A DNA stretch of 6,286 bases from a virus (Duplodnaviria; Heunggongvirae; Uroviricota; Caudoviricetes). Of this stretch, positions 1,674 to 1,724 are shown piece by piece. The stretch lies in IMG/VR virus record IMGVR_UViG_2711768074_000010; one strand, given 5' to 3'. Both the position numbers and the translations under genes were made by a program. Position 1 is the first letter of the stretch; each line of letters begins with the position of its first letter. Below the pieces are notes generated by a model. It was not told the DNA's origin, made no database searches, and saw nothing but the letters and a program-made list of their open reading frames with translations.

Positions 1674-1684
1674 ATCAGCCCCCT

Positions 1685-1716
1685 GTGAAAAAAGACACGG
1701 GGGCATTTCGCCCCCG
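1685..1716 (-). terminator. Terminator-like hairpin with U-run in the E-FI intergenic region (candidate partial intrinsic terminator or mRNA stabiliser)
   Basis: Minus-strand RNA after the E stop reads CGGGGGC-GAAAT-GCCCCCG (7-bp GC stem at 1698-1704 / 1710-1716, 5-nt loop), then UGUC, then UUUUUU (plus-strand A-run 1688-1693). The U-run is separated from the stem by 4 nt, so efficiency is uncertain. Confidence 0.4.
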
Positions 1717-1724
1717 CTCACGGA

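What the first reader, a model, noticed from the sequence alone, without database searches (positions are those of the whole stretch)
1674..1724. Terminator-like GC hairpin plus U-run immediately after the major capsid gene
After the E stop the transcript can form CGGGGGC-GAAAT-GCCCCCG followed, 4 nt later, by UUUUUU. A partial terminator or 3' stabilising hairpin here would raise the ratio of capsid/decoration message to downstream FI-FII-Z-U message, matching the high copy number needed for E and D.
Basis: seen in the sequence. Interest (0 to 1): 0.4.

Follow-up and report, generated by a model that had tools for sequence, protein, structure and literature searches.

The report
Conserved hairpin after the capsid gene
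A real, strongly conserved terminator-shaped RNA hairpin sits just after the major capsid gene of this phage-21-type prophage, but it is an ordinary, previously noticed feature of lambda-like late operons that more likely protects or insulates the message than cuts transcription short.

Summary
On the minus strand, 7 nt after the capsid-gene stop (TAA 1727-1725), the RNA can form CGGGGGC-GAAAU-GCCCCCG (1716-1698, plus a G1717·U1697 pair). UGUC and U6 (1693-1688) follow, then the FI ribosome-binding site and ATG (1673-1671). The hairpin (-16.8 kcal/mol) beats all 300 composition shuffles. It is the top terminator-like site in the window and in 20 kb of the phage 21 late region.

The window is a phage-21-type head operon, not lambda itself. 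All 32 distinct spacers examined after E-family capsid genes carry a GC hairpin at this position, with unrelated sequences. Three further remote relatives have no spacer and no hairpin. Only 14 of the 32 hairpins have a U-rich tail. A second hairpin sits between D and E. Both spacers are 100% identical to phage 21, although E itself is 91.7% identical.

Late transcription runs under Q21 antitermination, which blocks terminator hairpins, so attenuation during lytic growth is unlikely. My best reading (0.4) is a hairpin that Q-loaded polymerase bypasses. It then shields upstream RNA from 3' exonucleases and can stop only polymerase that lacks Q.

The N15 GenBank record already annotates the equivalent stem-loops as putative terminators. 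No RNA 3'-end data were available, so the function remains inferred. Interest is low to moderate.

The parts
1725..2753 (-). Major capsid gene (lambda E / phage 21 gene 7 homologue), stop TAA 1727-1725
   Evidence: ORF list. Pfam Phage_cap_E E=6e-67. 95-99.7% protein identity to phage 21-type capsid proteins and 62% to lambda E.
1697..1717 (-). GC-rich hairpin GCGGGGGC-GAAAU-GCCCCCGU: 7 Watson-Crick pairs plus a terminal G·U, 5-nt loop, -16.8 kcal/mol
   Evidence: Sequence; fold; 0/300 shuffles as stable. All stem changes in 10 distinct family members keep pairing, including one G-C to A-U double change.
1688..1693 (-). U6 run, starting 4 nt after the last G-C pair of the stem and ending 4 nt before the FI Shine-Dalgarno
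   Evidence: Sequence. All but two of the twelve 21-type spacer variants keep U6; the two exceptions are single loci. The L090 variant has U5 directly after the stem. A U-rich tail is present in only 14/32 distinct spacers of the wider family.
1671..1683 (-). FI ribosome-binding region: SD GGGGG 1683-1679 and start ATG 1673-1671
   Evidence: Sequence. Phage 21 records annotate the RBS and start at the equivalent place. The SD varies among relatives (GGGGG, GGAGG, GAGGG).
1290..1673 (-). FI (DNA-packaging protein FI) gene, first gene downstream of the hairpin
   Evidence: Pfam Packaging_FI E=1.6e-14. Only 66.7% nt identity to phage 21 FI.
2782..2803 (-). Partner hairpin in the D-E spacer: UCAGGCCAC-CGCG-GUGGCCUGA (9 bp), no U-run
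   Evidence: Second-listed terminator-like site; sequence. The 57-nt spacer is 100% identical to phage 21. Lambda, N15, phi80, Kluyvera, Serratia, Erwinia and others have a hairpin+U7 at the same position.
2811..3158 (-). Head decoration gene (lambda D / phage 21 shp homologue)
   Evidence: Pfam HDPD E=4e-24; annotation of phage 21.

Best explanation
The element is one of a pair of position-conserved, terminator-shaped RNA hairpins that bracket the major capsid cistron inside the Q-antiterminated late operon of a phage-21-type prophage.

During lytic growth the operon is transcribed by Q21-loaded RNA polymerase. Its exit-channel nozzle stops the hairpin from forming at the polymerase, so transcription continues into FI and the tail genes. 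This step follows from published structure work.

The hairpin folds once the RNA has left the nozzle. When the long polycistronic message is cut downstream, the hairpin acts as a barrier to 3'-to-5' exonucleases (PNPase, RNase II). The upstream segment carrying D and E would then outlive the downstream part. This step is inferred by analogy with malE-malF, papBA and the operons studied by Dar and Sorek.

The U6 run gives the hairpin terminator competence only towards polymerase that lacks Q. It would then also act as a fail-safe stop for stray transcription entering the head-completion and tail genes, for example in a lysogen. This step is inferred too.
For: Real and selected:
- The hairpin is far more stable than shuffles.
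- The 51-nt E-FI and 57-nt D-E spacers are both 100% identical to phage 21, while E is 91.7%, D 96.3%, FII 88.4% and FI 66.7% identical.
- Every stem substitution seen in the family keeps pairing: C-G to U·G, G-C to G·U, G-C to A-U. The loop varies.

Position is conserved, not sequence:
- All 32 distinct spacers after E-family capsid genes hold a GC-closed hairpin. They come from 21-type, lambda, N15, phi80, Gifsy-1, Providencia, Serratia, Erwinia, Cedecea, Aeromonadaceae, Methylorubrum, Chi, Salvo, K251, SS2019XI and RcPacific.
- Each of 19 lineage representatives beats composition shuffles (fraction <= 0.023).
- The lambda-type family shows U-A/C-G covariation at an outer pair.

The hairpin is the constant and the U-tract is optional: 14/32 have a U-rich tail, and 0/7 of the remote ones do.

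Antitermination: Q21 blocks terminator hairpins processively. Ordinary 7-11 bp stems are bypassed by processive antitermination, and only stems of roughly 12-14 bp or more resisted it in another system (PMC10325885).

Protective 3' hairpins that reshape operon stoichiometry are established in E. coli (PMC5927463). N15 annotates such stem-loops after D, E and the major tail gene, the three most abundant virion proteins.
Against: No RNA 3'-end, half-life or coverage data exist here for this or any related phage, so both functional steps are inferred.

Hairpins in phage 21 also flank J, a low-copy tail-tip protein (I-J and J-stf spacers). There is none after the major tail gene V of phage 21 (15-nt spacer). 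Hairpins therefore do not simply track protein abundance.

Three remote E-family phages (KLER1-1, X29, phiERICV) have no spacer and no hairpin.

From memory, not verifiable here: Sampson, Hendrix, Huang and Casjens (PNAS 1988) attributed lambda late-protein ratios to translation initiation rather than mRNA level. That would leave little for a stabiliser to do.

The hairpin starts only 7 nt after the stop codon (2 nt in lambda), so terminating ribosomes must repeatedly open it.
Confidence: 0.4

Rival explanations
1. Pure fail-safe or insulator terminator. The hairpin plus U-run stops only RNA polymerase that did not load Q at pR', such as stray initiation inside the prophage or read-in. This keeps late-gene expression strictly Q-dependent. 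It has no role in mRNA stability.
For: The element has terminator shape and meets the scan's criteria. In phage 21 every late-operon spacer longer than 40 nt (D-E, E-FI, I-J, J-stf) holds such a hairpin, whatever the abundance of the flanking gene products. The lambda-type D-E spacers carry textbook hairpin+U7 terminators. [quoted passage not shown]
Against: 18 of 32 spacers, including all the remote ones, keep the hairpin without a U-rich tail. A terminator-only function does not explain this. The window's own D-E hairpin has no U-run. The match to published terminator rules is poor.
Confidence: 0.25
2. Partial terminator (attenuator) active during lytic growth. A fraction of late transcripts ends after E, which raises D/E message relative to FI, FII, Z, U and the tail genes.
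For: Hairpin plus U6 directly after the most abundant structural gene. Within the 21-like clade the U-rich tail recurs in separately diverged spacers: window, L090, Providencia and Gifsy-1. The phage L paper lists partial termination as a possibility. Inefficient terminators are used to balance expression in T7, as cited in PMC9163698.
Against: The Q21-loaded polymerase is described as termination-deficient, with a steric block to hairpin formation. An 8-bp stem is in the class bypassed by processive antitermination. Lambda-type phages place their best terminator upstream of E. The U-tract is not conserved with the hairpin. The stem ends CG or GU, and the proximal U-tract reads U-G-U-C, contrary to the GC(U)7RU consensus. 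The curated phage 21 record annotates terminators at I-J and J-stf but not here.
Confidence: 0.15
3. Organiser of FI translation initiation. The hairpin locks up the RNA just upstream so that the FI ribosome-binding site stays single-stranded and is uncoupled from the heavy ribosome traffic ending at the E stop. The U-run acts as a U-rich (ribosomal protein S1) enhancer.
For: The hairpin always ends close to the next start codon: 11-31 nt in 17 of 19 lineages. The tail often runs straight into a pyrimidine-rich stretch and the SD, for example UUUCUGGAG in N15, phi80 and L122. The whole spacer including the SD is 100% conserved against phage 21.
Against: The same kind of hairpin occurs in Salvo and RcPacific 40-44 nt from the next start. 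Two specific pairings that would couple the hairpin to the SD are not conserved: the 3' arm with GGGGGC, and the outer helix UCCGUGA/UCACAGG.
Confidence: 0.1
4. No function: a chance palindrome or a leftover of recombination at a module boundary.
For: FI is a mosaic hot spot (66.7% identity to phage 21, next to a 100% identical spacer). The 51-nt fold is only z = -2.1 against dinucleotide shuffles.
Against: A hairpin is present in 32 of 32 distinct spacers of unrelated sequence. Substitutions preserve pairing. Both spacers are more conserved than the coding flanks.
Confidence: 0.05

Closest known systems
Putative rho-independent terminator stem-loops annotated in the phage N15 late operon (NC_001901: 5980-6004 after gene 7/D, 7053-7073 after gene 8/E, 9596-9613 after gene 13/V, 15307-15330 before gene 21/J)
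   Same: Same position, directly after the E-family capsid gene and before FI. Same kind of short GC stem. It is also paired with a second hairpin in the D-E spacer and lies in a late operon with the same gene order.
   Different: The sequence is unrelated: GUGGCCC-AUUC-GGGCCAC in N15 against GCGGGGGC-GAAAU-GCCCCCGU here. The N15 tail is CUUUCUGG, with no U6 run. The N15 features are annotations, not tested terminators.
[quoted passage not shown]
   Same: A predicted terminator inside a single-promoter, antiterminated late operon at the end of the head-shell gene block. Phage L has a Q21-type antiterminator (80% identical). [quoted passage not shown]
   Different: The capsid family is different (P22-type, not lambda E-type). 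I did not examine the L sequence.
3' protective stem-loops in differential operon mRNA decay (malE-malF, papBA, menBCE; Dar and Sorek 2018, PMC5927463)
   Same: An intercistronic stable hairpin 3' of a cistron, sometimes with hairpins on both sides as for papA. The structure is evolutionarily conserved. The proposed action is a block to PNPase and RNase II after downstream RNase E cleavage.
   Different: For those operons the half-life differences were measured. Here nothing was measured. Most protective structures in that study lie inside the downstream coding region, whereas this one sits in a dedicated spacer.
Canonical intrinsic terminators as defined by the hairpin / U-tract / bubble-edge (HUB) model (10.64898/2026.05.29.728758)
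   Same: GC-rich hairpin of ordinary length followed by a run of U.
   Different: The last two stem nucleotides are CG (or GU) instead of GC. The seven positions after the stem read U-G-U-C-U-U-U instead of U7. The element lies inside an antiterminated operon rather than at its end.

Membership tests
Intrinsic (Rho-independent) terminator | GC-rich stem-loop: stem of about 5-14 bp, loop of 3-8 nt | tested here: met
   8 pairs (7 Watson-Crick, all G-C, plus a terminal G·U), loop 5 nt, -16.8 kcal/mol.
Intrinsic (Rho-independent) terminator | U-tract of about 7-8 nt that starts directly at the foot of the stem | tested here: inconclusive
   U6 begins 4 nt after the last G-C pair, and the tail reads U-G-U-C-U6. 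It passes the scan's loose rule of at least 5 T in 8 nt starting 0-2 nt after the stem. G and C occupy the stem-proximal positions.
Intrinsic (Rho-independent) terminator | Bubble-edge dinucleotides: GC at -11/-10 (end of stem) and RU at -2/-1 (HUB model) | tested here: not met
   The stem ends CG, or GU if the wobble pair is counted. The positions that would be -2/-1 are UU. Rules taken and applied to the sequence. Only 3 of 32 related spacers end their stem in GC.
Intrinsic (Rho-independent) terminator | Measured release of transcripts at the site | not testable with these tools
   No 3'-end data were found. The Term-seq supplement of PMC7547250 is not held.
Intrinsic (Rho-independent) terminator | Acts on the polymerase that transcribes the unit | not tested
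   No assay was run here. Published work describes the Q21-loaded polymerase that transcribes late genes as termination-deficient, which argues against this feature being met during lytic growth.
3' protective (exonuclease-blocking) stem-loop of differential operon decay | Stable stem-loop in the transcript 3' of the stabilised cistron | tested here: met
3' protective (exonuclease-blocking) stem-loop of differential operon decay | Structure conserved across relatives | tested here: met
   Present in 32/32 distinct spacers. Substitutions preserve pairing.
3' protective (exonuclease-blocking) stem-loop of differential operon decay | Upstream segment has a longer half-life or higher level than the downstream segment, dependent on the stem | not testable with these tools
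   Needs rifampicin-chase RNA-seq or Northern blots of an induced lysogen.
Any curated RNA family (Rfam 15) | Covariance-model match | tested here: not met
   No hit in or near 1674-1724. The only sub-threshold hit in the window is an unrelated snoRNA model at 1511-1562 (E = 0.56).

The most novel reading that the evidence does not exclude
The two hairpins that bracket the major capsid cistron form a conserved, cistron-specific mRNA-stabilisation cassette shared by lambda-E-type head modules from Enterobacterales to Alphaproteobacteria. If so, differential mRNA decay, and not translation initiation alone, helps to set the large excess of capsid and decoration protein in antiterminated late operons. 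A more speculative variant applies to 21-type prophages, which are found in 29% of complete E. coli genomes. There the hairpin plus U6 would define the 3' end of an Hfq-binding RNA derived from the capsid message.
Probability: 0.2. Interest if true: 0.5.

Novelty: new member of a known kind. Interest (0 to 1): 0.25.

Why it matters
The role of terminator-like hairpins inside antiterminated phage late operons is an acknowledged loose end; the phage L authors write that 'their roles are not known'. The comparison made here narrows the options. The hairpin is kept in every spacer examined after E-family capsid genes, while the U-tract is optional. Lambda-type phages even put a textbook terminator in front of the capsid gene. 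Both points argue for a post-transcriptional or fail-safe role rather than attenuation.

There are practical consequences as well. Terminator predictors will keep flagging this site in the roughly 29% of E. coli genomes that carry the module. Anyone engineering lambda- or 21-type head operons, or expressing D-E cassettes, should expect the flanking spacers to matter. If the element is only an ordinary bypassed terminator, nothing in phage biology changes.

Tried and rejected
1. Alternative pairing of the 3' arm GCCCCC with the FI Shine-Dalgarno GGGGGC, as a possible translational switch. Rejected: the commonest variant among 80 close relatives has GGAGG, and others have GAGGG or GGAGA.

2. The extended helix in the MFE fold (UCCGUGA with UCACAGG, enclosing the U-run). 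Rejected: UCCGGGA variants break it with no compensating change.

3. RNase III site. Rejected on size, from my own knowledge: an 8-bp stem is far shorter than the roughly two helical turns RNase III needs.

4. Known RNA family. No Rfam match.

5. Bidirectional terminator. On the plus strand the same hairpin is followed by CUCACGGAUUAUUUC, not a U-run, so the U-run is specific to the sense strand.

6. Substitution-density comparison of spacer against synonymous sites within the 21-type family. Uninformative: the stem arms were variable at 4/16 positions against 18/50 third codon positions, and a divergent spacer variant inflated the counts.

7. Direct evidence from the literature. Liu et al. 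2013 (lambda ribosome profiling) and Sampson et al. 1988 are not held. The lambda RIL-seq preprint reports Hfq-bound phage RNAs only between ea10 and ral and, in the late operon, at LPR2 and 6S RNA, which lie close together; it names none at E-FI. The EHEC Term-seq paper has no held supplement.

8. The first viral-contig scan returned only relatives 98-100% identical. Diversity came from the genome scan with an alignment and from the phage collection.

Full report
**What is there**

The window is the head region of a lambdoid prophage, read on the minus strand.
- It is 95.7% identical over 98% of its length to Escherichia phages PhiR12_1, _2, _4 and _5, and about 93% identical to phage 21.
- Pfam confirms the gene order D (HDPD), E (Phage_cap_E), FI (Packaging_FI), FII (Phage_attach).
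- The same 301 bases occur in prophages of 1561 of 5426 complete E. coli genomes.

**The observation**

Read from the sequence, the minus strand runs as follows:
- E stops at TAA 1727-1725, followed by seven bases (UCCGUGA).
- The hairpin is G1717-CGGGGGC (1716-1710), loop GAAAU (1709-1705), GCCCCCG (1704-1698)-U1697.
- After the core stem comes UGUC (1697-1694, its first U being the wobble partner of G1717), then U6 (1693-1688) and CACA.
- The FI Shine-Dalgarno is GGGGG (1683-1679) and the FI ATG is 1673-1671.

Evidence that this exceeds chance:
- The spacer folds at -22 kcal/mol (z = -2.1, 7 of 200 dinucleotide shuffles as good).
- The hairpin alone is -16.8 kcal/mol, which none of 300 composition shuffles of the spacer reaches.
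- It heads the list of terminator-like sites in the window and in the first 20 kb of phage 21.
- No Rfam family matches it.

**Comparative anatomy**

This is the most informative result. I collected spacers that follow E-family capsid genes from three sources: the phage collection, one genome per species, and 80 viral contigs.

All 32 distinct spacers that exist carry a GC-closed hairpin shortly after the stop codon. The sequences cannot be aligned between lineages:

| Lineage | Hairpin |
|---|---|
| Lambda | AUGGCCC-UUCG-GGGCCAU |
| N15 | GUGGCCC-AUUC-GGGCCAC |
| Providencia | CGGCGGG-GAAA-CCCGCCG |
| Aeromonadaceae | CAUGCCCC-UGAAU-GGGGCAUG |
| Trabulsiella guamensis | 11-bp stem |
| Phage Chi | 10-bp stem |

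Further points:
- Salvo, K251, SS2019XI and RcPacific, at 24-33% protein identity, carry one too.
- Each of 19 lineage representatives beats its shuffles (fraction <= 0.023).
- Three remote phages (KLER1-1, X29, phiERICV) have abutting or overlapping genes and no hairpin.
- Inside the 21-type family, every stem substitution keeps pairing, including GGGAGC/GCUCCC in an E. coli and a Shigella genome. The loop varies.
- In the lambda-type family the sixth pair alternates between U-A and C-G.
- Against phage 21, the E-FI spacer (51 nt) and the D-E spacer (57 nt) are both 100% identical. E is 91.7%, D 96.3%, FII 88.4% and FI 66.7% identical. At the divergence of E, 108 unchanged neutral bases would have a probability of about 1e-4 (my calculation from those figures).

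**The hairpin is constant; the U-run is not**

By the scan's own rule, only 14 of 32 spacers have a U-rich tail. All 14 come from enterobacterial lambda- or 21-type prophages or from the Aeromonadaceae genome. None of the seven remote ones has such a tail.

Within the 21-like clade the U-rich tail does recur in separately diverged spacers: the window, L090, Providencia and Gifsy-1. It is probably not accidental there.

**A second hairpin sits on the other side of E**

The D-E spacer of the window holds a 9-bp hairpin (2803-2782) without a U-run.

Lambda, N15, phi80 and the Kluyvera, Serratia, Buttiauxella, Erwinia and Aeromonadaceae prophages instead have a textbook terminator shape there. It consists of an A-tract, GCCGC-loop-GCGGC and U5-U7.

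In phage 21 every late-operon spacer longer than 40 nt contains such a hairpin: D-E, E-FI, I-J and J-stf. The curated phage 21 record annotates the last two as terminators but not the first two.

The N15 record annotates putative rho-independent terminators after genes 7 (D), 8 (E), 13 (major tail) and 20, and further downstream.

**How it most likely works**

Lambdoid late genes are transcribed from pR' by polymerase that has loaded Q.
- For phage 21 Q, the loaded complex carries a torus on the RNA-exit channel. [quoted passage not shown] It stays bound for tens of thousands of nucleotides (10.1101/651190).
- In another processive antitermination system, ordinary 7-11 bp stems are bypassed. 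Only stems of roughly 12-14 bp or more resisted (PMC10325885).
- The stem here has 8 pairs.
- By the recent hairpin/U-tract/bubble-edge rules the site is also a poor terminator. Strong sites have GC at the stem end, U7, then RU. This one has CG (or GU), then U-G-U-C-U-U-U.

Together with the canonical terminators that lambda-type phages place upstream of the capsid gene, these points argue against the idea that the element lowers downstream message during lytic growth.

What remains is a hairpin that forms behind the polymerase. The established role for such intercistronic hairpins in E. coli is to block 3' exonucleases after endonucleolytic cleavage downstream, so that the upstream cistron outlives the rest. 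Known examples are malE-malF, papBA with hairpins on both sides of papA, and menBCE (PMC5927463).

I take this as the most likely function (0.4). The U-run adds terminator competence against polymerase that lacks Q. Both steps are inferred; neither is shown.

**Rivals**

- *Pure fail-safe terminator (0.25).* It fits the hairpins around the low-copy J gene and the canonical D-E terminators. It does not explain the many hairpins without U-tracts.
- *A role in FI translation (0.1).* It is suggested by the short, constant distance to the FI start but is untested. The two specific pairings that would link the hairpin to the FI ribosome-binding site are not conserved.
- *Chance (0.05).* Essentially excluded by the comparative data.

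**Weak points of my reading**

- Hairpins do not track abundance in phage 21. There is none after the major tail gene, and there are two around J.
- From memory only: classic work attributed lambda late-protein ratios to translation initiation.
- No RNA data were available to me.

**Novelty**

The kind is known. N15's GenBank record marks stem-loops at the same two positions. [quoted passage not shown]

The 21-type hairpin is unrelated in sequence and is not annotated in either phage 21 record. I therefore file it as a new member of a known kind.

The modest added value here is the demonstration that the hairpin, not the U-tract, is the conserved part, and that the capsid cistron is bracketed by hairpins on both sides.

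Noticed in passing
window 2782-2803 (-), D-E spacer 2754-2810: A second strong hairpin (UCAGGCCAC-CGCG-GUGGCCUGA, 9 bp) lies between the decoration and capsid genes. It has no U-run here. At the same place lambda, N15, phi80 and several enterobacterial prophages have a textbook hairpin+U7 terminator.
   Followed up: partly
window 1290-1673 (-), FI gene: FI is only 66.7% identical in DNA to phage 21 FI, while the adjoining 51-nt spacer is 100% identical and E is 91.7% identical. A mosaic junction seems to lie at or just inside FI.
   Followed up: partly
window 3159-3186 (-), C-D spacer: A sigma-70-like promoter match (CTGACC-16-TACAAT, 9/12) sits directly upstream of D on the sense strand and is conserved in phage 21 (5920-5947). 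With the E-FI hairpin it would bound a D-E unit. However, one such match in the window is fewer than the shuffles give (3.2 +/- 2.1).
   Followed up: no
L085 (phi80, NC_021190) 1736-1738: The RefSeq FI start is a GTG 9 nt after the E stop, inside the 5' arm of the conserved hairpin. An ATG preceded by GGAG lies about 36 nt further downstream, as in N15 and L122, so the annotated start is probably wrong.
   Followed up: partly
L098-L112 (genome-contig scan): Thirteen assemblies of unrelated organisms carry short or low-coverage contigs with an E-FI junction identical to lambda's. They include Chromatium, Neobacillus, Kitasatospora, Paenibacillus, Shewanella, Pseudomonas and Leeuwenhoekiella. 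This is probably lambda control-DNA contamination.
   Followed up: no
L157 (phage 21, OL657228) 15633-15692 and 19176-19233: The only other long spacers of the phage 21 late operon flank the tail-tip gene J. Both hold canonical hairpin+U terminators, which are annotated in the record. All four spacers longer than 40 nt in the late operon therefore hold a hairpin.
   Followed up: partly
window 396-929 (-), Z gene: The Z-homologue ORF listed is 177 aa, whereas phage 21 Z is annotated at 192 aa (579 nt). I did not examine whether the difference is a different start or an indel.
   Followed up: no
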